A stretch of DNA of 41,987 nucleotides from Alphaproteobacteria bacterium (GTDB taxonomy: Bacteria > Pseudomonadota > Alphaproteobacteria > JAEULF01), in NCBI GenBank assembly GCA_016793965.1, contig JAEULF010000187.1, positions 1-41,987 of the forward strand. Reading direction: 5' to 3'. How positions within the stretch are numbered: the first letter of the stretch is position 1; each line of letters opens with the position of its first letter. Positions 1-41,987 of the stretch are shown piece by piece. Below the pieces are notes generated by a model. That model saw only the letters and a list, made by a program, of their open reading frames with translations. It had not been told where the DNA came from and did no database searches. The position numbers and the translations under genes were made by a program.

Positions 1-83
1 CTGGTGGAAGCGTCACCGCAATGGCTGATCGACGTGGCGACCCGCTACTGACCGTAGATCGGCTCTGTAGATTGACCCCGATC

Positions 84-88
84 TGCGC
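84..88. repeat. Target-site duplication, left copy (TGCGC)
   Basis: The pentanucleotide TGCGC lies immediately outside the left terminus. It is identical to 39803-39807, just outside the right terminus. A 5-bp duplication is the Tn7-family hallmark. Confidence 0.85.
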
Positions 89-115
89 TGTCATTTCCAC
101 GAATAGATGAGAGTG
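89..115 (+). repeat. Left terminal inverted repeat, including the outermost putative TnsB site
   Basis: TGTCATTTCCACGAATAGATGAGAGTG compares with the reverse complement of 39776-39802, TGTCATTTCCACGAATAAATGAGAGTG. There is one mismatch. Confidence 0.9.
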
Positions 116-174
116 GGTCACGGCGGAATTCCGCCAGTCAACCCAGCAGCGGCACCCATTTTCCGATGCGACCG

Positions 175-197
175 ACACATTGAATGGTGAGAGTGGG
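175..197 (+). repeat. Putative internal TnsB-binding site L2
   Basis: ACACATTGAATGGTGAGAGTGGG shares the ACAT-N(8-9)-TGAGAGTG(G/C) pattern with the other end-proximal sites. Confidence 0.55.
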
Positions 198-206
198 TTG
201 CAATCC

Positions 207-229
207 GACATCAAACAGTGAGAGTGGCC
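207..229 (+). repeat. Putative internal TnsB-binding site L3
   Basis: GACATCAAACAGTGAGAGTGGCC has the same pattern and orientation as L1 and L2. Confidence 0.55.
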
Positions 230-249
230 ACGCTCATACCTTTTCTATT

Positions 250-6804: not shown

Positions 6805-6945
6805 TGCCCGGAGGGCGCGCAAACCGAATCGGCCGATCTCAGGCGTGACGCCAGCACTCAACTCCGCGGCTGACGCCAACGCCGAGAATGAAGCTGCGGC
6901 GGCTTGCGGGCGCGACGCCGCTGCGCGGGCCCGATCGGTCCTCGC

Positions 6946-8860: not shown

Positions 8861-9654
8861 TGAATGCCTCCGCGCATCGGCATCGCCGCGCCGCCCATCG
8901 GCACCATGCCCATGCCGCCGCCCATCTGCATCCCGAGATGCGGCGGCAGCAGTTCCTCCGCGGTCCTCCTCTGCAGGTCCGACAGCGCGGGAAGCAGCGA
9001 CGCGACCGCAGTCTTGATCGCGCGCAGGCCGTCAAGGCGAGCGGCGTACCAGGCCTCCTGCAGGTCCAGCTGCTGATCGAGGCTCGCCGCTCTTGGCGCC
9101 TGGCCGGCCGGCATCATGCGCTGGCGCGTCTCGCCCAGGCGTTTCGCGTTAGCGCGCATGGCCTGGGCCAGCCCGTCCCATGCCTTCGCTTGCGCGTCCG
9201 TGACGTTCAGCTCGGCGCGCAGGAACGCGATGCGCCCCTCGATGCGGTCGATCATGCCCGTGCCGGCCATCGAGTCGCCGTACATGCCCATGCCGCCGCC
9301 CATCATCGGCATCATCATCCCCATCATCGGATATCCGCCACCGGGAGCCATGGCGCTGTACATGCCCATGCCGCCGCCCATCATCGGCATCATCATCCCC
9401 ATCATCGGATATCCGCCACCGGGAGCCATGGCGCCGTGCATGCCCATGCCGCCGCCCATCATCGGCATCATCATCCCCATCATCGGATGGCCGCCACCGG
9501 GAGCCATGGCGCCGGGCACCGCGGGCGCATTCTGGGGAGCTGCAGCGGCTGCTGACGGATGGTGCGGGTCCTGCTGGGTCTGCGCTCCGGCGGGGATCGC
9601 AGCCGCGAACGATGCGGCAAGCGCTGCCGCGGCCAATTTCTTCAAGCGTGTCAT
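8857..9654 (-). CDS. Met-rich periplasmic Spy/CpxP-like (LTxxQ-type) protein with triplicated Met/Gly repeat
   Basis: The internal ATG at 9654 is preceded by AGGAGA. Signal peptide MTRLKKLAAAALAASFAAAIPAGA. Three 26-aa repeats AMAPGGG(H/Y)PMMGMMMPMMGGGMGM. The helical C-terminal half carries LNVTDAQ and a second Met-rich tail. The upstream 335 codons of ORF 8857..10659 are not credible. Confidence 0.75.
   Translation of the reverse strand: MTRLKKLAAAALAASFAAAIPAGAQTQQDPHHPSAAAAAPQNAPAVPGAMAPGGGHPMMGMMMPMMGGGMGMHGAMAPGGGYPMMGMMMPMMGGGMGMYSAMAPGGGYPMMGMMMPMMGGGMGMYGDSMAGTGMIDRIEGRIAFLRAELNVTDAQAKAWDGLAQAMRANAKRLGETRQRMMPAGQAPRAASLDQQLDLQEAWYAARLDGLRAIKTAVASLLPALSDLQRRTAEELLPPHLGMQMGGGMGMVPMGGAAMPMRGGIQ
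9277..9514. repeat. Three tandem 78-bp in-frame repeats inside the Met-rich protein gene
   Basis: Period 78 bp: tacatgccca at 9281 and 9359, tgcatgccca at 9437. Units are nearly identical at the nucleotide level. Confidence 0.9.
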
Positions 9655-34233: not shown

Positions 34234-35148
34234 CTATCCGATTCCAGCACGACGTCGGCTCGGTGGCGTCCATGGAACATACCTCGCGTACTCTTCGCTG
34301 AGCTTGGCGACCCCCTCGATGCGGGCGCGATACGCGATCGCGCGCAGGCGCTTGACCACTTCGCCGGTCAGCCCTTCCGTCTCGGCATGCAGCCGCTGGA
34401 TGAAGTTCGGACTCTCGAAGAGCTCGCTGTCCTCCGGGAACCACGTCATCCAGACGCACCCGGCGAACCGAGCGAAGCTCTCGTTCGGCTCCCAGAGCGG
34501 CATCTCGAGGACGTCGAAGCGGTTGCCGAGCTGTTGGTCGGTCTGGAGGGCCCGCGTCGCCTCGCGCAGGCCGAAGACGACGACCGGTATCTGGGTCTCG
34601 TTGATCAGGTCCTTGAGGACTCCGAGGAAAGCGGTCTGAGCGCCGGCCGAGCCGGTCAGCATTTGGTGGAACTCGTCGATCAGGATGAGCCTGGTGCCGG
34701 TTCGGCGGAGGAGGTGCACGAGCTGGTTCTGGAGCGCGGTTGCGTCACGCGAGCTCACCGGCTGCGCACCAAGCTCCTCGATCATTCGGAGCAGCATCAG
34801 CCGGCGATCCGAGCCCGGAGGAGCGAAGAACCTGATGACCGGTATGACCGCCATCTCGCCGTCGCCTGGGCCGACGCTCGCTTCCTGCACGGCCTTGAAG
34901 CGCATAGCGATCTGCGTCTTGCCGTGGTTGGTCGGCGCCTCGATCATGAGGCAGGCAGGCCGGGAGACGATCGGGCTGTTCGCCAGCCGTCGCATGCGTG
35001 CAAAGGCTCGCTCCGCGGCGCTGTACGGCACCCAGAACTCCGCATCGATCGATGGATCGAAGATGCCTGCGCCCGGCGTCAGCGGCAGCTCCAGAGACGG
35101 AGGTGGCATCGTGGTTGATTGCTTGGCCGCCCTGATGCGATCAGCCAT
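34234..35148 (-). CDS. tnsC: TnsC/TniB-like AAA+ ATPase (short form)
   Basis: Internal ATG at 35148 shares one base with the tnsB stop (TGATG) and gives 304 aa. Walker A-like EAPTNHGKT and Walker B LILIDEFH. Confidence 0.85.
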   Translation of the reverse strand: MADRIRAAKQSTTMPPPSLELPLTPGAGIFDPSIDAEFWVPYSAAERAFARMRRLANSPIVSRPACLMIEAPTNHGKTQIAMRFKAVQEASVGPGDGEMAVIPVIRFFAPPGSDRRLMLLRMIEELGAQPVSSRDATALQNQLVHLLRRTGTRLILIDEFHQMLTGSAGAQTAFLGVLKDLINETQIPVVVFGLREATRALQTDQQLGNRFDVLEMPLWEPNESFARFAGCVWMTWFPEDSELFESPNFIQRLHAETEGLTGEVVKRLRAIAYRARIEGVAKLSEEYARYVPWTPPSRRRAGIG

Positions 35149-36968
35149 CACCACACCTCCGGCTTGACGGGTGCTTTGAAGTCGATCTTCCACCGCTTCT
35201 CGGTCGCCGGGTCGCTCGGCGCGGCAGTCGCGCCAGCGGCAGGCTTGAACGGAACGACGTTCTCGGCGCCGGCAGGTGCGGCCAAGCCGGCGTCATGCTC
35301 GTCGGGCGGTCGTGCGACAGCGGCGGCCAGGCGCTCTTTGTGATCGCGACGGCGTTCCTGCTCGCGCCTGGCCTTGCGCGTGTGCTGGCGCGCCTGCTCG
35401 ACGGTGGCCAGCATCCGCTCGCGCGCCATCAGGATCTGCTCGCCGGTATCGTCCGGCAGCTTGTGCTCCTTCGCGAAACGCTGGGCAGCCTTCCATTCCC
35501 ACAGGCTGATCGACGGCCGGCCCAGATGAACCCAGTCGACGTCGAGATAGGTGCCCATCTTGTTGTCGAGGAAGTAGATCCGGCTGATGTCTCGGGGATC
35601 GCGCCGCACCGTGAATTGCTCGGTTCTCCGGCCCTTCTTGGCGCCGATCAACGGCCGCAGCGCGTGCGCGTGGTAGCGGATCTTGTCCCACTCGACCCCG
35701 TGCCGCTGCACCGAGCGCTTGGCGAGAGGCAGGAAGGTGATCCGCAAATGACGTTCGTCGAACGCTGCCCGCGTGGCGCCGGTGCCAAGCTTGCCGTCGC
35801 CCCCTTCGATCCCCTTCGTCCAGCGCGCGAGCGGGCTCGTGCCGATTCCGTTATGCAGGCGACGGTGGTAGACGTTGACCACCCACTCCGTGAAGTAGCG
35901 CTCGAGTTCGCGCAAGGTCATGCATGCCGTCGCATCGGGATCGTTCTCTCCGCGCTCGGCGACATTGGAAAACGTGGCCCCCGGGATCTCCCGCAAGCAT
36001 CCGTTGATCGTGCCGATGAGCCGCTCGATGTGCCCGCCGTACTTGGGAGCCTTGACGGGCCGGTAGTCGAGCTCGATGCCGAACTCGACGCAGGCGTCCT
36101 GCAGCGCCATTCCGTGGAACTCGCGGGCATTGTCGCAGTGGATCACCGCCGGGAGGCCCGACACCGGCCATTCGCCCTCGACGCCGACTCGCAGCAGCCA
36201 GGGACCCTTCGGCAGGAACGCCTGCTGCAGGCAGAGCCCGACGGTCAACGCGCTCGGATCGTCGAGCGATATGCAATAGCCGGCGATGACGCGGCTGTAG
36301 ACGTCGATCGCAACGGTGAGCGACGGCCGGCCGATCGGCTTGCGGTCCTGCTCGGAGACAAGAATGACGTCGAGCTTGGTGTGGTCGATCTGCACGAGGT
36401 CGAAGGGATGATCGGCGCCGGGAATCGAGCCGATGACCGGTTCGTGCTTGTCGCTCGCTGCCTTCGCGCCGTGCCGACGCCTGACGAGCATCTCGCGGTC
36501 GACCGCCCGGATGCGGTTGCGGATGGTGTTGGCGTGCGGCTTAGGCAGGTGGGCCTTGCGGCAGTAGCGGTAGACCTCTTCGATCGTCCGTGCCTTCTTG
36601 GGCCGCGCCTTGGTCAGGTGGAAGCTCTCGATGACGATCTTGATCGCGGCCTCGACGCGCGGATCGAGGCGCGCTCCGGCCTTGCGACCGCGCGGCTTCG
36701 GGGCGAGGGCGACCCGGCTTCCACCGCCGCGGAGGCGCCCCAGCCAGCGATAGATGGTCGCGACGGAGACCCCGTGTTGGCGCGCGGTCGCTGAGGCCAC
36801 GGCCTGCGTGACCTTGGGGAGCTTCATGAGCGGCGCGATCGCCGCCAAGCGCCGTTCGGCGGCGGCGCGCGCACGCGGCGAGAACGCCTCGAACGGCCGC
36901 TTGCCCGTCTTGTCGGCGGCCTGCGCCGGCGCCAACGCCGGTCTTGCTTGACGTCGCCTAGATCCCAT
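35148..36968 (-). CDS. tnsB: TnsB-type DDE (retroviral-integrase fold) transposase
   Basis: 606 aa. N-terminal HTH (VSVATIYRWL). DDE triad contexts VQIDHTKLDV, IHCDNAREFH and GHIERLIGT. SD GGAGAA upstream. Confidence 0.92.
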   Translation of the reverse strand: MGSRRRQARPALAPAQAADKTGKRPFEAFSPRARAAAERRLAAIAPLMKLPKVTQAVASATARQHGVSVATIYRWLGRLRGGGSRVALAPKPRGRKAGARLDPRVEAAIKIVIESFHLTKARPKKARTIEEVYRYCRKAHLPKPHANTIRNRIRAVDREMLVRRRHGAKAASDKHEPVIGSIPGADHPFDLVQIDHTKLDVILVSEQDRKPIGRPSLTVAIDVYSRVIAGYCISLDDPSALTVGLCLQQAFLPKGPWLLRVGVEGEWPVSGLPAVIHCDNAREFHGMALQDACVEFGIELDYRPVKAPKYGGHIERLIGTINGCLREIPGATFSNVAERGENDPDATACMTLRELERYFTEWVVNVYHRRLHNGIGTSPLARWTKGIEGGDGKLGTGATRAAFDERHLRITFLPLAKRSVQRHGVEWDKIRYHAHALRPLIGAKKGRRTEQFTVRRDPRDISRIYFLDNKMGTYLDVDWVHLGRPSISLWEWKAAQRFAKEHKLPDDTGEQILMARERMLATVEQARQHTRKARREQERRRDHKERLAAAVARPPDEHDAGLAAPAGAENVVPFKPAAGATAAPSDPATEKRWKIDFKAPVKPEVW

Positions 36969-37620
36969 GGGGAGTTCTCCCGGTTCGCAACGAGATGAGC
37001 GCGTCCGGCGTCAATGGCTGGTCGAGATCGGCAGCCAAGAGCCCCCGCGCGAGCGCGGTCCAGAGGTCCGGCGTTGCCGCCAACCGATCCGACGTATCGG
37101 GCCAGGCCGCGCGCAGCAGATCGTCCACCGCCATGCCAGGTGCCGGCTGCGCCAGCGCCAGGATCCGCGCCGCACGCCCAGGATCGAGCTGGCGCCAGCG
37201 GAAGCGGTGCAGCCAGCGCGCGTTCTCCAAGCGCGGTGTGCGGATCTCGCGGCAGGAAACGACCCGGAAGATCGCGCCGATTGAGCGTGCGTGATCTTGC
37301 GCCGCGGCAATCGCCGCCGCTCTCTCCCGGCACCATTTGGCAAGGCGTGCCTCGGGCTTGACCTCGACGAGCTCGGGGGATCGGTCCCCGGCCACCCACG
37401 TGGTCAGGAAGTCCGGCACGTAGCTCCTGCGGCGGCCCCCATCGTCATGCCATTCAATCCGGCAGGGCTGCGCCTCGATCGAACGCAGCATCGGATCGAG
37501 CAGGGTCAGGAGGACGAAGTCGCGCTCGAGAGTGGATTCGACGGCGATCGCCGTGCCTGGACGGACGACAATGCGGGCGGACACGGATCCGCGAGATGGC
37601 GTGACGCGCCGCACACTCAT
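36958..37620 (-). CDS. tnsA: TnsA-type endonuclease (restriction-enzyme fold)
   Basis: 220 aa. Catalytic E/D/K context ESTLERDF...YVPDFL...LVEVKP. Overlaps tniQ upstream and tnsB downstream. Confidence 0.85.
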   Translation of the reverse strand: MSVRRVTPSRGSVSARIVVRPGTAIAVESTLERDFVLLTLLDPMLRSIEAQPCRIEWHDDGGRRRSYVPDFLTTWVAGDRSPELVEVKPEARLAKWCRERAAAIAAAQDHARSIGAIFRVVSCREIRTPRLENARWLHRFRWRQLDPGRAARILALAQPAPGMAVDDLLRAAWPDTSDRLAATPDLWTALARGLLAADLDQPLTPDALISLRTGRTPHGI

Positions 37621-38996
37621 GTATGCCTACGACTCCTGTCTGTGATCGTTTCTTGTTCTCCAGTACCGTTAATGACACTTTTTGGCGAAATCGTGGCATC
37701 GAGCAGGGCGGACCTGAGCGCGCGGTCGACCCAGACGCCCAGGTTCATCCCAGCCCGATGCGCAGCGGTGCGGGCGGCGGCGCGCACCTCCGGCGCGACC
37801 CCCTGGAGCTTCCAATGCCGGTGGGTTCCCCAAGCGATCGCAGTCCGCGCCGGTGCCGTCAGGTGTCCCCGACCGTCCAGGCTGCGACCGACGAGTGTGC
37901 GGAGAGCCGCGAGCGTGGGGCGGATGCCGGCGGCTTCCAAATGCGCTCGTGCCGCGACGACCTCGCCGTCGTCGGTCACCGTCTCCGCGTCGAACAGGTT
38001 CCATCGGATCGCGTGGTGCAGGGCATAGGGCAGGCGCCGGCCGTGCTTGTCGATCAGGCCGGCATGGACACCGACCTGCCTGCAGGCGCCGACGAACCGC
38101 CTCGGCCAATCGGTCATCATCCAGCTCGCAAGCTCCAGCAGCGACGCGCGCCCCGACGGCTCCAGCGCCCTGAAGTCGCGGATCGGCGGCAGGCGATCGA
38201 TGGCGTGCGTCGCGCATTGCGCGACATCTGCCAGATGGGTGCGGAGCGGGCGCGCTTGCGGCCCGACGCAGAACAGGCGGACCAGCCGCTCGAGGATCTC
38301 GAACCAGGCGAGCGACAGGATCGGTCCGTGGCCATCGAGCATCGACCAGAGGTCGCTCGCGTTGCAGAGCATCCGCGACTGCAGTTCGATGACCTGGCGC
38401 GATGCGCGCTCCGGACGGACCGAGCGCAAGTCGTCGCCGCAACGGGCGCAGTCGACGAACAAGCGCTTCGTCCCCCGTCGCATCGGAAGGAGCTGGAACC
38501 CGCAGCTCGGGCAGCGGTTGATCAGGTGGACCGCGTGGTCCGCACATGCCGTCACGAAACTGAGCCGCCAGGAGAGTCGAAGATGCGGTGTGCGATCCTC
38601 ATCGAGGCAATGCCGGCAGACCTGCTGACCGAAGCCGCCCTCGGAGTTGGATGCGGCTCCGGACGGCGGAAGCCAACCAAGCTTTGTGCGGCCGTCATCC
38701 CTCTCGAAGACCGTGCCCGCCCACCGGGCGAAGGTCGCGTTGCGCAGGTCCGGCGCTGCTCGCCCGGTCTTGGCCGCGAGGCGCTCGATCAGCGCTCCCG
38801 GCGCTGCGCGGTCGAGGTCGTAGAGGCCAAGGTGATGCCTCGGGAACAGCGCCCGCATTAGCTCCTGCGGCAAGAGGCCGTTCATCTCGGCGACACGCGC
38901 GAACCAGGAACTGAAGCTCTCGTCTTGCTGCAGCATCGGGCGGCCAGGCCAGAGGCGCTCCGGTTGGTGCTCCGCGCGCAATCCGGGTACTCTCAT
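37617..38996 (-). CDS. tniQ: TniQ/TnsD-family target-selection protein with a C-terminal ribbon-helix-helix-like tail
   Basis: Internal ATG at 38996 (MRVPGLRAE...). TniQ N-terminal signature PGRPMLQQDESFSSWFARVAEMNGL. Zinc-finger-like CRHC...C..H....CPSCG. The first 89 codons of ORF 37617..39263 run through the divergent promoter and are not credible. Confidence 0.85.
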   Translation of the reverse strand: MRVPGLRAEHQPERLWPGRPMLQQDESFSSWFARVAEMNGLLPQELMRALFPRHHLGLYDLDRAAPGALIERLAAKTGRAAPDLRNATFARWAGTVFERDDGRTKLGWLPPSGAASNSEGGFGQQVCRHCLDEDRTPHLRLSWRLSFVTACADHAVHLINRCPSCGFQLLPMRRGTKRLFVDCARCGDDLRSVRPERASRQVIELQSRMLCNASDLWSMLDGHGPILSLAWFEILERLVRLFCVGPQARPLRTHLADVAQCATHAIDRLPPIRDFRALEPSGRASLLELASWMMTDWPRRFVGACRQVGVHAGLIDKHGRRLPYALHHAIRWNLFDAETVTDDGEVVAARAHLEAAGIRPTLAALRTLVGRSLDGRGHLTAPARTAIAWGTHRHWKLQGVAPEVRAAARTAAHRAGMNLGVWVDRALRSALLDATISPKSVINGTGEQETITDRSRRHT

Positions 38997-39054
38997 GGGG
39001 ATGTATACACATAAAACCGGCAAGATTGCCGGCGCGGCATATGTGCAGCAGTCC

Positions 39055-39294
39055 ATGAAGAGATCCCTAACGCCCGATGTCTGCCGCGCAGCCCGCAGCC
39101 TCCTCGGCTGGTCGCGGGAGACGCTGGCCGAGAGATCCAGCGTCGCCGAACGCACGATCATCGACTTCGAGCGGGAGGCCCGGCGACCGCTGCCGCGCAC
39201 GCTCAGGGATCTGGAAGAAGCGATCGCGGCCGCAGGCGTCGATCTGATCGTCGACGGAGGCAAGACAGTGGGCTTGCGCTGGCGGCCAGGTTGA
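39055..39294 (+). CDS. Small HTH (XRE/Cro-like) regulator divergent from the tniQ-tnsABC operon
   Basis: From the internal ATG at 39055 it is 79 aa. The HTH segment is CRAARSLLGWSRETLAERSSVAERTIIDFERE. An earlier start at 38995 is possible. Confidence 0.65.
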   Translation: MKRSLTPDVCRAARSLLGWSRETLAERSSVAERTIIDFEREARRPLPRTLRDLEEAIAAAGVDLIVDGGKTVGLRWRPG

Positions 39295-39590
39295 AGCGCG
39301 CGAGCTCAATGGCGCGACGAACTGCCAAGACAGCGACGCGCTTGACCAGTCCACGCGGATGCACGCAACTGCTGCACGAACGCCCGCGGAGAGGGCTGGG
39401 TGCAGGTAGCGCCCGCGCTCCGCACCTGACCGTCCTGCGAGCAATCGATCCTCGAAGGGCGATCTTCGAAACCGAGCGCGTACGGCTCGAGGCGACGGCG
39501 ACTGGACGCACGCGTTCTGCGATCTCGTGGCAGCCGTCACATTGCCGCCAGCGTCGGGCTGATCATCAGCGAACGACCGACCGATGTCCT

Positions 39591-39613
39591 CACATCAAAA
39601 TCTGAGAGTCGCG
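39591..39613 (+). repeat. Extra TnsB-site-like sequence in left-end orientation inside the right end
   Basis: CACATCAAAATCTGAGAGTCGCG closely resembles site L3 (GACATCAAACAGTGAGAGTGGCC). It points outward, opposite to sites R1 and R2. Confidence 0.4.
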
Positions 39614-39752
39614 CAACCGGCTGATTCAGCGCCAGCATCTGCGGTTCGGGCGGTGCAATCTGCTCGCAGCAATTGATGGCAAGTGACTCATCTGCAATCG
39701 GAATTCGTCGCGACTCGGAGGACCGCCGAGTCGGCCCTTGAGAATCCTGGGC

Positions 39753-39775
39753 CCGCACTCTCAATCTGAGATGTG
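39753..39775 (-). repeat. Putative TnsB-binding site R2
   Basis: The reverse complement CACATCTCAGATTGAGAGTGCGG fits the shared pattern and directly abuts the terminal site. Confidence 0.55.
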
Positions 39776-39802
39776 CACTCTCATTTATTCGTGGAAATGA
39801 CA
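39776..39802 (-). repeat. Right terminal inverted repeat, including the outermost putative TnsB site
   Basis: The reverse complement TGTCATTTCCACGAATAAATGAGAGTG matches 89-115 at 26/27 positions. Confidence 0.9.
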
Positions 39803-39807
39803 TGCGC
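39803..39807. repeat. Target-site duplication, right copy (TGCGC)
   Basis: Identical pentanucleotide to 84-88, immediately outside the right terminus. Confidence 0.85.
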
Positions 39808-39836
39808 CCAACGGTGATCCCGGCAGCCCGGTGTCG

Positions 39837-39910
39837 TGGTTGGGGGACTAGGATTCGAACCTAGACTGGCGGAGTCAGAGTCCGCTGTCCTACCGTTAGA
39901 CGATCCCCCA
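39837..39910 (-). tRNA. tRNA-Gln (anticodon CUG), CCA encoded
   Basis: Manually folded 74-nt cloverleaf. Acceptor TGGGGGA/TCCCCCA (U1-A72), D arm GTCT-AACGGTA-GGAC, anticodon arm GCGGA-CTCTGAC-TCCGC, variable CAGT, T arm CTAGG-TTCGAAT-CCTAG, then A-CCA. Confidence 0.9.
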
Positions 39911-40025
39911 GCAGCCCCGCACAGCATGGCCGGGGCGACGGAGCCGGGACTATGGTGACGCGTCCGGCTGTCGTCAAGTCTAGGCGGACAGCCTTGAAGC
40001 AGGGTTAAGCGCCATGTTCTGGCGC

Positions 40026-41063
40026 TCAGGCTGCTCGCGCGCGGCGTGCCTTCTCGCCCATGGCGCATGCCGTCAGGAAAGCTTGCACGCTGGCCTCGAC
40101 ATTGGCCTTGCCCTGCCCAGCGATGTCATACGCCGTGCCGTGCGCCGGCGTGCAGATCGGGACCGGCAGGCCGCCGAGGACCGTGACGCCCCTCTCGAAG
40201 CCCATGAGCTTCATAGCGATCTGGCCCTGGTCGTGGAACATGGTCAGCACCGCGTCGAATTGCCCGGCCTTGGCCCGCAGGAAAACGGTATCGGCGGGGA
40301 ACGGTCCCTCGACCGCGACGCCCCGCGCCCGTCCCTCTGCCGCGACCGGTGCTAGGACGTCGATCTCCTCACGCCCGAAATTGCCGCCGTCGCCGGCATG
40401 CGGATTGAGGGCCGCCATGGCGATCCGCGGCGGGTCGAAGCCGGCCATGCGCATCGCTTGGTCGGCCAGGACCAGGGAGCCCAGCACGCTCTCGCGCGTC
40501 AGCAGGCTCGCCACCTTGGCCAGCGGCACATGGGAGGTGACGCGCGCGTTCCATAGGGAGCCGAGAACGTTGAACTCGCTTGCCGGCCCATGGAATCCCA
40601 AGACGTCAGCCGCGAAATGGATCTCGTCCTCATACGGATTGCCGGCGAGCTTGAGCGCGGCCTTGTTGAACGGCGTGAATAGCACCGCGTCGACTCGCCC
40701 GGCCTTGGCGAGCTCGAGCGCCAGGCGGAAGTTGCTCATGGCGAAACTGCCTCCGGCTGCCGATGCCTCACCCAGCTTGATCGATGCCGGGTCGCAATGG
40801 CCGAGGTCGAGCATCACCGGGCGGCCCGGCCCGAGATTGGCCTCGGCCGCCTGGCGCACCACGGGCAGGTCTAGCGTGACCTTGGCCGCTGACTCGCCCG
40901 CAGCAAGGATCCGTCTGTCGCCGATGACGAGGATCGCGGCCCCGCCCACGACGTCCTGACGCGCCAGAAGCTTGGCAGCCAACTCGGGGCTGATGCCGCA
41001 GGGGTCGCCCATGGCCATGGCGATCCGGACCGGTGCATCGGCGCGGTCGTTGCGTGCCGTCAT
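40026..41063 (-). CDS. PdxA-family NAD-dependent 4-hydroxythreonine-4-phosphate dehydrogenase-like enzyme
   Basis: Family motifs IAMAMGDPCGISPE, HAGDGG, FHDQG and TPAHGTAYDIAGQG. The start was chosen at the ATG 7-8 nt after GGGAGG (41063); 41069 or 41126 are also possible. Confidence 0.85.
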   Translation of the reverse strand: MTARNDRADAPVRIAMAMGDPCGISPELAAKLLARQDVVGGAAILVIGDRRILAAGESAAKVTLDLPVVRQAAEANLGPGRPVMLDLGHCDPASIKLGEASAAGGSFAMSNFRLALELAKAGRVDAVLFTPFNKAALKLAGNPYEDEIHFAADVLGFHGPASEFNVLGSLWNARVTSHVPLAKVASLLTRESVLGSLVLADQAMRMAGFDPPRIAMAALNPHAGDGGNFGREEIDVLAPVAAEGRARGVAVEGPFPADTVFLRAKAGQFDAVLTMFHDQGQIAMKLMGFERGVTVLGGLPVPICTPAHGTAYDIAGQGKANVEASVQAFLTACAMGEKARRARAA

Positions 41064-41270: not shown

Positions 41271-41987
41271 GTGAGGAAGCTTGCCGCAGCCGCGGCGGCG
41301 CTGGTCGCCGCCATCGCGTTCGCCGGAACCGCGGACGCGCAGAAAACCCTGCGATACGCCCATGTCGGCGCAGAGGGCGAGGGCCAGACCCGCTTCGCTC
41401 TCGAGGTCGCCAAGCGCGTCAAGGACAAGACCGCCGGACGCATCGAGATCCGCGTCTTCCCGAACTCGCAGCTCGGCAACATCAGCGAGATGATCGACGG
41501 CGTCCGGATCGGGTCGATCGCCATGGGCCACCACGACTTCGCTTCGTTGGACCGCATCGTGGCGGACGTCTCCGTGTTCAACGCGCCCTTCATCTACCGC
41601 GACCCCGGCCATGCCATGCGCGCCACCGCCGAGAGGACCTCGCCGGTCATGCAGGAGATCAACAAGCAGCTGGTCGAGAAGGGCAGCATGCGGATCGTCG
41701 GCAACTTCTACCGCGGCGCCCGCCAGCTCTCGGCGAAATTCGCGGTGAAGTCGCCGGCCGACCTCAAGGGCCAGAAGATCCGCGGCGTGCCGCTGAAGCT
41801 CTGGAACACGATGATCTCCGGCATGGGCGCCATCCCGACGCCGGTGGAGATCGCCGAGATCATCCCGGCGCTGCAGACGGGCCTCGTCGTCGGCCAGGAG
41901 AACCCGCTCAACAACATCATCGCGCGCAAGATGTACGAGGTGCAGTCGCACGTCATGATGACGAGCCACATGGAGAGCGTCCTCTGC
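41271..41987 (+). CDS. TRAP transporter substrate-binding protein (DctP family), 5' partial, runs off the window
   Basis: GTG start preceded by AAGGGAGGAG. Signal peptide VRKLAAAAAALVAAIAFAGTADA, then a stop-free frame to the window end with DctP-like segments (RVFPNSQLGN, FNAPFIYRD, GQENPLNNI). It is absent from the ORF track because no stop lies in the window. Confidence 0.8.
   Translation, partial: MRKLAAAAAALVAAIAFAGTADAQKTLRYAHVGAEGEGQTRFALEVAKRVKDKTAGRIEIRVFPNSQLGNISEMIDGVRIGSIAMGHHDFASLDRIVADVSVFNAPFIYRDPGHAMRATAERTSPVMQEINKQLVEKGSMRIVGNFYRGARQLSAKFAVKSPADLKGQKIRGVPLKLWNTMISGMGAIPTPVEIAEIIPALQTGLVVGQENPLNNIIARKMYEVQSHVMMTSHMESVLC

What the first reader, a model, noticed from the sequence alone, without database searches (positions are those of the whole stretch)
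39803..39910. Orientation-specific insertion 29 bp downstream of tRNA-Gln(CUG): a candidate dedicated attachment site
The duplicated pentamer ends at 39807 and the 3' CCA of the tRNA is at 39837, so 29 bp separate them. The tns-proximal (right) end faces the tRNA. This mirrors Tn7, whose right end faces glmS when TnsD directs insertion downstream of a conserved gene. tRNA 3' flanks are known attachment sites for some Tn7-like lineages. The recognised sequence would be the conserved tRNA gene, while insertion occurs in the harmless spacer.
Basis: partly seen in the sequence, partly recalled or inferred. Interest (0 to 1): 0.6.

Follow-up and report, generated by a model that had tools for sequence, protein, structure and literature searches.

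The report
Tn7-like transposon docked behind tRNA-Gln
A 39.7-kb metal-resistance transposon of the Tn7 family sits 29 bp behind a glutamine tRNA gene, and some 40 related elements sit in the same way behind tRNA genes, so the tRNA gene is very probably its dedicated docking site; this way of targeting is already known for other Tn7 relatives.

Summary
tRNA-Gln(CUG) lies at 39837-39910 on the minus strand, with its CCA encoded. The transposon runs from 89 to 39802, with TGT...ACA ends whose 25-nt inverted termini match 24/25. It is flanked by a 5-bp duplication, TGCGC, at 84-88 and 39803-39807. Exactly 29 bp separate the duplication from the CCA. The tniQ-tnsA-tnsB-tnsC end faces the tRNA.

I examined 27 genome loci with a TniQ 31-43% identical to this one. 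In 17, the tniQ-proximal TGT terminus lies 27-39 nt after the 3' end of a same-strand tRNA gene. Seven are unresolved, and none was shown to sit at a non-tRNA site. Another 19 of 37 metagenome loci and an Azospirillum brasilense replicon show the same arrangement. The targets are Gln(CUG), Gln(UUG), Ser, Phe and Met, and they cluster on the TniQ tree. At Gln(CUG) sites the tRNA gene is 97-100% identical, while the spacers are unrelated.

TnsD-directed insertion about 29-33 bp after tRNA genes has been shown experimentally for cyanobacterial CASTs, so this is a new member of a known kind. Binding by this TniQ is inferred.

The parts
84..88 (.). left copy of the 5-bp target-site duplication, TGCGC
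   Evidence: Directly abuts the left terminus and is identical to 39803-39807.
89..240 (+). left end of the transposon: TGT terminus plus three spaced TnsB-type sites with core TGAGAGTG at 108, 188 and 219
   Evidence: nhmmer with the family end model
34234..35193 (-). tnsC/tniB, AAA+ regulator
   Evidence: Pfam TniB PF05621, E 2e-46
35148..36968 (-). tnsB, DDE transposase
   Evidence: Pfam Mu-transpos_C, rve and HTH domains
36958..37620 (-). tnsA, endonuclease
   Evidence: Pfam Tn7_TnsA-like_N PF08722, E 5e-11
37617..38936 (-). tniQ (TnsD-like target selector, 439 aa); the first gene inward from the tRNA-proximal end
   Evidence: Pfam TniQ PF06527, E 3e-25. The called protein is P0001. The AF2 model has pLDDT 84.7. 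The best structural matches are TniQ and TnsD chains at Z 13-14.
39716..39802 (-). right (tns-proximal) end: TGT terminus plus two close TnsB-type sites at 39776-39783 and 39756-39763
39803..39807 (.). right copy of the 5-bp target-site duplication, TGCGC
39808..39836 (.). 29-bp spacer between the duplication and the tRNA 3' end; not conserved among sites
39837..39910 (-). tRNA-Gln(CUG) gene, intact with CCA encoded; the proposed recognition determinant of the attachment site
   Evidence: It is 97-100% identical to the tRNA-Gln(CUG) genes next to related elements.

Best explanation
The window holds a complete 39,714-bp Tn7-like transposon (89-39802) carrying metal-resistance cargo. It was inserted by cut-and-paste TnsA/TnsB transposition into a dedicated attachment site downstream of tRNA-Gln(CUG).

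Proposed mechanism: the element's single TnsD-like TniQ binds the tRNA gene DNA, most likely its 3' part (T-arm and acceptor strand) plus the first bases of the spacer. It then recruits TnsC, which positions TnsAB so that the tns-proximal end is joined about 30 bp beyond the CCA, in one orientation. The tRNA stays intact and a 5-bp duplication is made.

Shown here: the anatomy of the element, the duplication, the distance and the orientation; the same arrangement in about 40 related elements; and the clustering of target tRNA identity on the TniQ tree.

Inferred: These rest on analogy with Tn7 TnsD/attTn7 and with the tested tRNA-targeting TnsD proteins of PmcCAST, McCAST and CyCAST.
For: 1. 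Bona fide Tn7-type insertion: the 25-nt inverted termini match 24/25, a 5-bp TSD flanks them, TnsB-site repeats occur only in the ends, and tniQ, tnsA, tnsB and tnsC are present.

2. Family survey of 27 genome loci with full-length TniQ, 31-43% identical. Twenty-six have the tniQ-tnsA-tnsB-tnsC order; in L027 tniQ is convergent with tnsABC. Seventeen have the tniQ-proximal TGT terminus 27-39 nt after the CCA of a same-strand tRNA. L008 keeps only the 3' 45 nt of the tRNA. L028 is at 28 nt once a 3159-bp insert with TIRs and its own TSD is removed. L010 and L026 are at about 65-67 nt with extra DNA between.

3. A further 19 of 37 metagenome loci show the same arrangement, three of them repeating genome loci. 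So does Azospirillum brasilense NZ_CP059450.1, 35 nt after tRNA-Gln(UUG).

4. At the six genome-set Gln(CUG) sites compared (window, L008, L009, L017, L019, L028) the tRNA gene is 97-100% identical while the spacers are unrelated, with aligned score per length of 0.24-0.45.

5. Target identity (GlnC, GlnU, Ser, Phe, Met) needs 7 changes on the TniQ tree, against 8-13 in 500 label shuffles; none of the shuffles reached 7 or fewer.

6. The TniQ model matches TniQ/TnsD folds at Z 13-14. The top Foldseek hit is 8v32_J, a TnsD-TnsC-DNA complex. Weaker matches suggest a wHTH-like module (317-366) and an RHH-like module (373-422).

7. Published experiments show that TnsD alone with TnsABC directs insertion 29 +/- 1 bp after tRNA-Leu (McCAST, PMC9881144) and 30-33 nt after tRNA-Leu (CyCAST, PMC10293859).

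8. There is no CRISPR array or other RNA family in the window.
Against: This TniQ is a lone long branch. No relative exceeds about 43% identity among some 15 billion proteins, so repeated use of the site by its own lineage is untested. No closely related genome was available for an empty-site comparison; relatives share only the class.

The spacer of 34 nt to the terminus is 3-7 nt longer than in most other Gln(CUG) elements (27-31 nt; L087 also has 34). Spacing also varies by up to 5 nt between sister TniQs (L014 at 32, L022 at 27). The molecular ruler is therefore looser than in Tn7, or the spacers have changed since insertion.

Seven genome loci remain unresolved because no end was found in the sequence available.

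A related solo R-type terminus in the same genome (C426) is not next to a tRNA.

Elements in related hosts may share a site by descent, so the loci are not all independent events.
Confidence: 0.8

Rival explanations
1. The tRNA flank is chosen, but not because TniQ reads the tRNA-Gln(CUG) sequence. The family would recognise a generic property of tRNA genes, such as the universal T-arm box GGTTCGAATCC, a transcription-linked DNA structure or a host factor bound there. Which tRNA is occupied would then reflect inheritance within host lineages rather than selector specificity.
For: All target tRNAs share the GGTTCGA(A/T)TCC box at a fixed distance from the CCA. The most conserved TniQ parts, the N-terminal domain and the RHH-like tail, do not vary with the target. 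The window TniQ shows no greater similarity in any domain to the other Gln(CUG)-associated TniQs than to the rest. Host factors are known to assist TnsD and TniQ (PMC12372198).
Against: Only 6 of the 40-odd tRNA species are used, and target identity clusters on the TniQ tree: 7 changes against 8-13 in shuffles. Two elements in one MAG (L020, L028) carry different TniQ clades. In the tested systems, TnsD alone gives tRNA-specific homing in E. coli (PMC9881144, PMC10293859).
Confidence: 0.12
2. Chance or untargeted insertion: the element landed near the tRNA by accident, for example through a non-specific or replication-directed pathway.
For: Only one copy of this exact element is available. A related solo end in the same genome (C426) is not at a tRNA.
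Against: With roughly 50 tRNA genes in about 4.3 Mb, a 13-bp interval in one orientation behind any of them makes up roughly 1e-4 of possible insertions (my estimate). Yet about 40 related elements show this arrangement.
Confidence: 0.03
3. Homing by another machinery: guide-RNA-directed insertion as in type V-K CASTs, or a tyrosine/serine integrase acting on the tRNA gene.
For: tRNA genes are classic targets of both (PMC11406308).
Against: The window has no CRISPR array and no RNA family other than the tRNA. The genes at the tRNA-proximal end are tniQ, tnsA, tnsB and tnsC. There is no duplicated tRNA 3' segment at the far end. The junctions are TGT/ACA termini with a 5-bp duplication, which is the mark of TnsAB transposition and not of site-specific recombination.
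Confidence: 0.02

Closest known systems
tRNA-targeting TnsD pathways of cyanobacterial Tn7-like elements: PmcCAST I-B2 (Tn7744, tRNA-Val), McCAST I-D (Tn7575, tRNA-Leu) and CyCAST I-D (Tn7745, tRNA-Leu)
   Same: A TniQ-family selector with extra C-terminal domains, together with TnsC and TnsA/B, inserts the element about 29-33 bp after the 3' end of a tRNA gene and leaves the tRNA intact. Different clades use different tRNAs (PMC9881144, PMC10293859, PMC11406308). The top Foldseek hit for the TniQ model is 8v32_J, a TnsD-TnsC-DNA complex. I take this to be the PmcCAST entry of Wang et al. (PMC12585508); that identification is not verified.
   Different: In this element TnsA and TnsB are separate proteins, whereas that clade has a TnsAB fusion. 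tniQ is the first gene of the operon rather than the last. There is only one TniQ and no CRISPR-Cas. The hosts are Alphaproteobacteria (Rhodospirillales and marine relatives). The targets are Gln, Ser, Phe and Met tRNAs. The C-terminus carries an RHH-like tail. Sequence similarity to solved TnsD/TniQ is limited to the N-terminal zinc-finger region (E 0.002-0.06).
Tn7 (TnsABC+D at attTn7 downstream of glmS)
   Same: TGT...ACA ends, a 5-bp duplication, several TnsB sites per end, and the tns-proximal right end facing the recognised gene. The insertion lies in the spacer beyond a conserved gene. With the Tn7 footprint of +23 to +58 (from my own knowledge of Tn7, not checked here), the equivalent stretch here would cover the last 27 nt of the tRNA gene plus 9 bp of spacer.
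   Different: The target is a tRNA gene rather than a protein-coding gene. There is no tnsE and no second pathway gene. The gene order is tniQ-tnsA-tnsB-tnsC. TnsC is the short TniB type (319 aa).
Type V-K CAST homing to tRNA genes
   Same: The same class of safe site, downstream of diverse tRNA genes, and frequent switching between tRNAs.
   Different: V-K elements use a truncated crRNA with Cas12k and lack TnsA. Here there is no CRISPR-Cas, TnsA is present, and the selector is a protein.

Membership tests
Tn7-like transposon (TnsA/TnsB/TnsC/TniQ core) | DDE transposase TnsB, endonuclease TnsA, AAA+ TnsC/TniB and a TniQ-family selector are encoded together | tested here: met
   Pfam hits PF09299 with rve, PF08722, PF05621 and PF06527 on four adjacent minus-strand genes
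Tn7-like transposon (TnsA/TnsB/TnsC/TniQ core) | TGT...ACA termini with several TnsB-binding repeats in each end and a 5-bp target-site duplication | tested here: met
TnsD-type fixed attachment-site pathway | Related elements are inserted at one distance and in one orientation downstream of a conserved gene, which stays intact | tested here: met
TnsD-type fixed attachment-site pathway | The selector carries DNA-binding domains beyond the TniQ zinc-finger core | tested here: inconclusive
   The AF2 model shows helical domains, a wHTH-like module (317-366, Z about 4) and an RHH-like tail (373-422, Z 4.6-4.8 to TacA2, Rv0298 and MazE-mt10). These matches are short and weak.
TnsD-type fixed attachment-site pathway | The selector binds the att DNA and is required for site-specific insertion | not testable with these tools
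   This needs EMSA or footprinting and a transposition assay.
Cyanobacterial tRNA-targeting TnsAB-fusion clade (PmcCAST/McCAST relatives) | TnsA and TnsB fused in one polypeptide | tested here: not met
   tnsA (36958-37620) and tnsB (35148-36968) are separate ORFs. The element works like that clade but is not a member of it.
CRISPR-associated transposon (CAST) | cas genes and a CRISPR array or homing spacer inside the element | tested here: not met
   No CRISPR-like array was found by Tandem Repeats Finder and no Rfam family other than tRNA. Cas proteins were not searched for exhaustively.

The most novel reading that the evidence does not exclude
The family may use a two-part reader. A family-invariant module (the RHH-like tail WKLDGVSPE..., perhaps with the N-terminal domain) would anchor on the universal T-arm box of any tRNA gene. 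The fast-evolving central helical and wHTH-like region (about 246-366) would read the acceptor and T-stem bases that tell tRNAs apart. This would explain at least seven target switches among six tRNAs within one transposon family, and it would make the selector easy to retarget.
Probability: 0.15. Interest if true: 0.6.

Novelty: new member of a known kind. Interest (0 to 1): 0.4.

Why it matters
The finding places a large copper and heavy-metal resistance island in a defined, reusable chromosomal docking site. It also shows that an alphaproteobacterial Tn7-like family uses tRNA genes as safe sites and has switched among Gln, Ser, Phe and Met tRNAs. I found no paper pairing 'Tn7-like' with 'tRNA-Gln' in the library searched. 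This extends a principle established in cyanobacterial CASTs to a different lineage with another operon layout. It also offers natural protein-guided insertion systems for Rhodospirillales such as Azospirillum and Magnetospirillum. It does not reveal a new mechanism.

Tried and rejected
1. Empty-site comparison for the window. The 40 nearest genomes are only of the same class and share nothing but the tRNA, so no unoccupied site could be aligned.

2. Closer relatives of this TniQ. None exceeds about 43% identity in either protein search or in the metagenome scan.

3. Left ends of L009 and L024, sought through the inverted 19-nt terminus with up to 3 mismatches. None was found, so duplications in those relatives were not verified.

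4. The idea that the L009 element had inserted into a resident 3.1-kb TIR element. The rest of that element was not found in the L009 genome, so the shared 22-nt spacer stays unexplained.

5. Logan contigs of four runs laid on 39300-40600. The contigs are short and break at the tRNA. One 115-nt contig of run X8 crosses the junction (39751-39865, 0 differences). No contig gave evidence of an empty site or of another flank.

6. Ends of L005, L015, L018, L020, L023, L025 and L027. None was found with the end model, even after extending five of them by up to 20 kb. A tRNA-Ala 10.6 kb from the L025 tniQ has no end beside it.

7. Per-domain identity as a way to locate the specificity domain. It gave only a weak trend: the wHTH-like and second helical regions drop most between elements with different targets.

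8. Integrase and CRISPR explanations were rejected; see the rival explanations.

Full report
**Observation.**
ARAGORN finds one tRNA in the window, tRNA-Gln with anticodon CTG, at 39837-39910 on the minus strand. Rfam confirms it at 63.7 bits. The gene ends ...TCCCCCAACCA, so the CCA is encoded and its last base is 39837. The terminus TGTCATTTCCACGAATAAATGAGAG occurs at 39778-39802 (minus) and, with one mismatch, at 89-113 (plus), and nowhere else; none is expected by chance. TGCGC flanks both termini, at 84-88 and 39803-39807. The repeat core TGAGAGTG occurs five times, all within the two ends: three spaced copies on the left and two close copies on the right.

**What the element is.**
Reading inward from the tRNA-proximal end on the minus strand, the genes are:
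- tniQ (37617-38936, PF06527)
- tnsA (36958-37620, PF08722)
- tnsB (35148-36968, Mu-transposase C, rve and HTH domains)
- tnsC/tniB (34234-35193, PF05621)

Further in lie RND/HlyD-type efflux genes and more metal-resistance cargo. The chromosomal neighbours are a PdxA-family gene beyond the tRNA and, on contig C148, a Usp-family gene; C148 overlaps window 1-141. The window holds no CRISPR-like array and no other Rfam family.

The TniQ has no close relative. The best hits among about 15 billion proteins are 40-43% identical, from Azospirillum, Rhodocista and uncultured Rhodospirillales.

A profile scan of one genome per species returned 27 loci with a full-length homologue. Twenty-six have the order tniQ-tnsA-tnsB-tnsC; L027 has tniQ convergent with tnsABC.

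In 14 loci ARAGORN finds a tRNA on the same strand just upstream of tniQ, and a TGTCG-type terminus with TnsB-like repeats starts 27-39 nt after the CCA:

| Target tRNA | Locus (spacer in nt) |
|---|---|
| Ser | L002 (27), L012 (28) |
| Phe | L003 (39), L007 (28), L024 (33) |
| Met | L004 (30) |
| Gln(UUG) | L006 (32), L013 (33), L014 (32), L016 (29), L022 (27) |
| Gln(CUG) | L009 (29), L017 (30), L019 (29) |

Fetching more upstream DNA added L011 and L021 (both Gln(UUG), 35 nt) and L010 (Gln(UUG), 67 nt, with a second degenerate end-like stretch in between). L026 has tRNA-Ser with a hairpin in between and a candidate terminus at about 65 nt.

L008 has only the last 45 nt of tRNA-Gln(CUG), followed 27 nt later by the terminus.

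L028 at first looked like an exception, since its terminus has no tRNA beside it. However, an intact tRNA-Gln(CUG) lies 3.2 kb upstream. The intervening 3159 bp carry perfect 24-nt inverted termini and an 8-bp direct duplication, AACACTTC. Removing them puts the terminus 28 nt after the CCA.

Seven loci stay unresolved: two lie at contig edges and in five no end was found. None was shown to lie at a non-tRNA site.

The metagenome scan gave 37 further loci, of which 19 show the same arrangement. Among them is L074, where tniQ is inverted but still next to the tRNA-proximal end, 31 nt after tRNA-Ser. L088 and L089 repeat L014, and L090 repeats L017. Two Azospirillum brasilense 2-Mb replicons carry a homologue. 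In the one examined, NZ_CP059450.1, the terminus lies 35 nt after tRNA-Gln(UUG).

With roughly 50 tRNA genes in a genome of about 4 Mb, a 13-bp interval in one orientation behind any of them makes up about 1e-4 of possible insertions (my estimate). Chance is therefore excluded for the family.

**What is recognised.**
At the six genome-set Gln(CUG) sites compared (window, L008, L009, L017, L019, L028) the tRNA genes are 97-100% identical; the window's is identical to L009's. The spacers are unrelated. The only sequence shared by the sites is the tRNA gene, so this is the recognition determinant left standing.

The target tRNA identity clusters on a maximum-likelihood TniQ tree. It needs seven changes, against 8-13 in 500 label shuffles, none of which reached 7 or fewer. 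Relatives in related hosts are not independent events, so this is a weak statistic.

The window's TniQ is a long, isolated branch outside the main clade. It shares its target with two other, separately placed groups (L008/L009, and L017/L019/L028).

Its spacer of 34 nt is at the long end of the range. Among the Gln(CUG) elements only L087 also has 34; the others have 27-31. Sister TniQs can differ by 5 nt (L014 and L022). The ruler is therefore looser than the +/-1 bp reported for McCAST, or the spacers have changed since insertion.

**The selector.**
An AlphaFold2 model built on 29 homologues has a mean pLDDT of 84.7.
- Residues 1 to about 316-370 superpose on TniQ and TnsD chains at Z 13-14. 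The top Foldseek hit is 8v32_J, a TnsD-TnsC-DNA complex.
- Residues 317-366 weakly resemble the winged-helix domain of DtxR/IdeR (Z about 4).
- Residues 373-422 resemble ribbon-helix-helix antitoxins (Z 4.6-4.8, 25-27% identity).

The last two matches are short and only suggestive. The RHH-like tail and the N-terminal domain are the most conserved parts of the family. The 246-366 region drops most between elements with different targets. That is a weak hint that specificity lies there.

**Mechanism proposed.**
TniQ binds the 3' part of the tRNA-Gln(CUG) gene and recruits TnsC. TnsA and TnsB then join the right end about 30 bp beyond the CCA, producing the TGCGC duplication and leaving the tRNA intact.
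- Shown: the anatomy, the orientation, the distance, the family-wide recurrence, and the absence of any alternative machinery.
- Inferred by analogy: TniQ binding, the region it contacts, and the role of TnsC.
- Taking the Tn7 TnsD footprint as +23 to +58 (from my own knowledge of Tn7, not checked here) and mapping it from the centre of the duplication (39805) gives 39828-39863. That stretch is 9 bp of spacer plus the last 27 nt of the tRNA gene.
- L008 is compatible with the 3' 45 nt being sufficient, but the order of events there is unknown.

**Comparison with what is known.**
Protein-directed tRNA homing is established. TnsD with TnsABC inserts McCAST 29 +/- 1 bp after tRNA-Leu (PMC9881144) and CyCAST 30-33 nt after tRNA-Leu (PMC10293859). 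PmcCAST uses a tRNA gene as its att site (PMC11406308); the cloned target in PMC10293859 was tRNA-Val. Reviews call tRNA targeting a recurring feature of Tn7-like elements (PMC11406308; bioRxiv 10.1101/2025.07.27.667033; PMC8649781).

The present element works like these but is not a member of their clade. TnsA and TnsB are separate, tniQ comes first, there is a single selector and no CRISPR-Cas, and the hosts are Alphaproteobacteria. No paper in the searchable library combines 'Tn7-like' with 'tRNA-Gln'.

**Verdict.**
This is a new member of a known kind, of moderate interest (0.4). The confidence of 0.8 rests on comparative evidence alone.

Noticed in passing
own genome, contig C386 9090-9125 (locus L045 about 1485-1520): An R-type terminus (read leftwards from 9101) and an L-type terminus (read rightwards from 9113) lie 11 bp apart. 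The L-type terminus is 80% identical to window 81-238. This looks like two related Tn7-like elements in tandem. No second set of tns genes is present in the 75%-complete assembly.
   Followed up: partly
own genome, contig C426 about 6820-6860 (locus L047): A solo R-type terminus (TGTCATTTCCACGAGTCGATGAGACTG...) lies 109 bp from a SelO gene, with no tRNA beside it. Its outer flank shares CCGATCTGC with the window's left flank (window 75-86). It may be a relic end and remains unexplained.
   Followed up: partly
L008 5564-5635 (Paramagnetospirillum kuznetsovii): Only the 3' 45 nt of tRNA-Gln(CUG), from the anticodon loop to the CCA, precede the element, with low-GC DNA upstream. This is the pattern left by an integrase-type island that split the tRNA. 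No intact copy lies within 20 kb upstream.
   Followed up: partly
L056 16805-19963 (same MAG as L028): A 3159-bp insert with perfect 24-nt inverted termini (CGGCATTATGTAGCAAGCTCACCA) and an 8-bp duplication, AACACTTC, which includes the last A of the CCA. It sits between tRNA-Gln(CUG) and the Tn7-like right end. Twenty-two nt of the same terminus make up the spacer of L009, although the rest of the insert is not in that genome.
   Followed up: partly
L027, L073, L074, L083, L101: Variants of the family in which tniQ is inverted relative to tnsA-tnsB-tnsC. In L074 the tniQ-proximal end is still 31 nt after tRNA-Ser(GGA).
   Followed up: partly
L020 10782-11426 and 12469-12543: A second, partial tniQ-like reading frame follows tnsC. 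A tRNA-Gln(UUG) on the opposite strand lies 1 kb further on, with no recognisable element end beside it.
   Followed up: no
window 1-141 and 41847-41987: Both contig ends overlap other contigs of the assembly by exactly 141 bp (C148:1-141 and C267:18574-18714), which marks assembly-graph branch points. The left one spans the flank and the first 53 bp of the element.
   Followed up: partly
window 38937-39715: About 780 bp lie between the right-end repeats and the tniQ start. They hold an ORF of 157 aa (39067-39540) with no Pfam family and no counterpart in the related loci.
   Followed up: partly
window 9276-9514: A tandem repeat of 78 bp x 3.1 copies (96% matches) inside a cargo gene.
   Followed up: no
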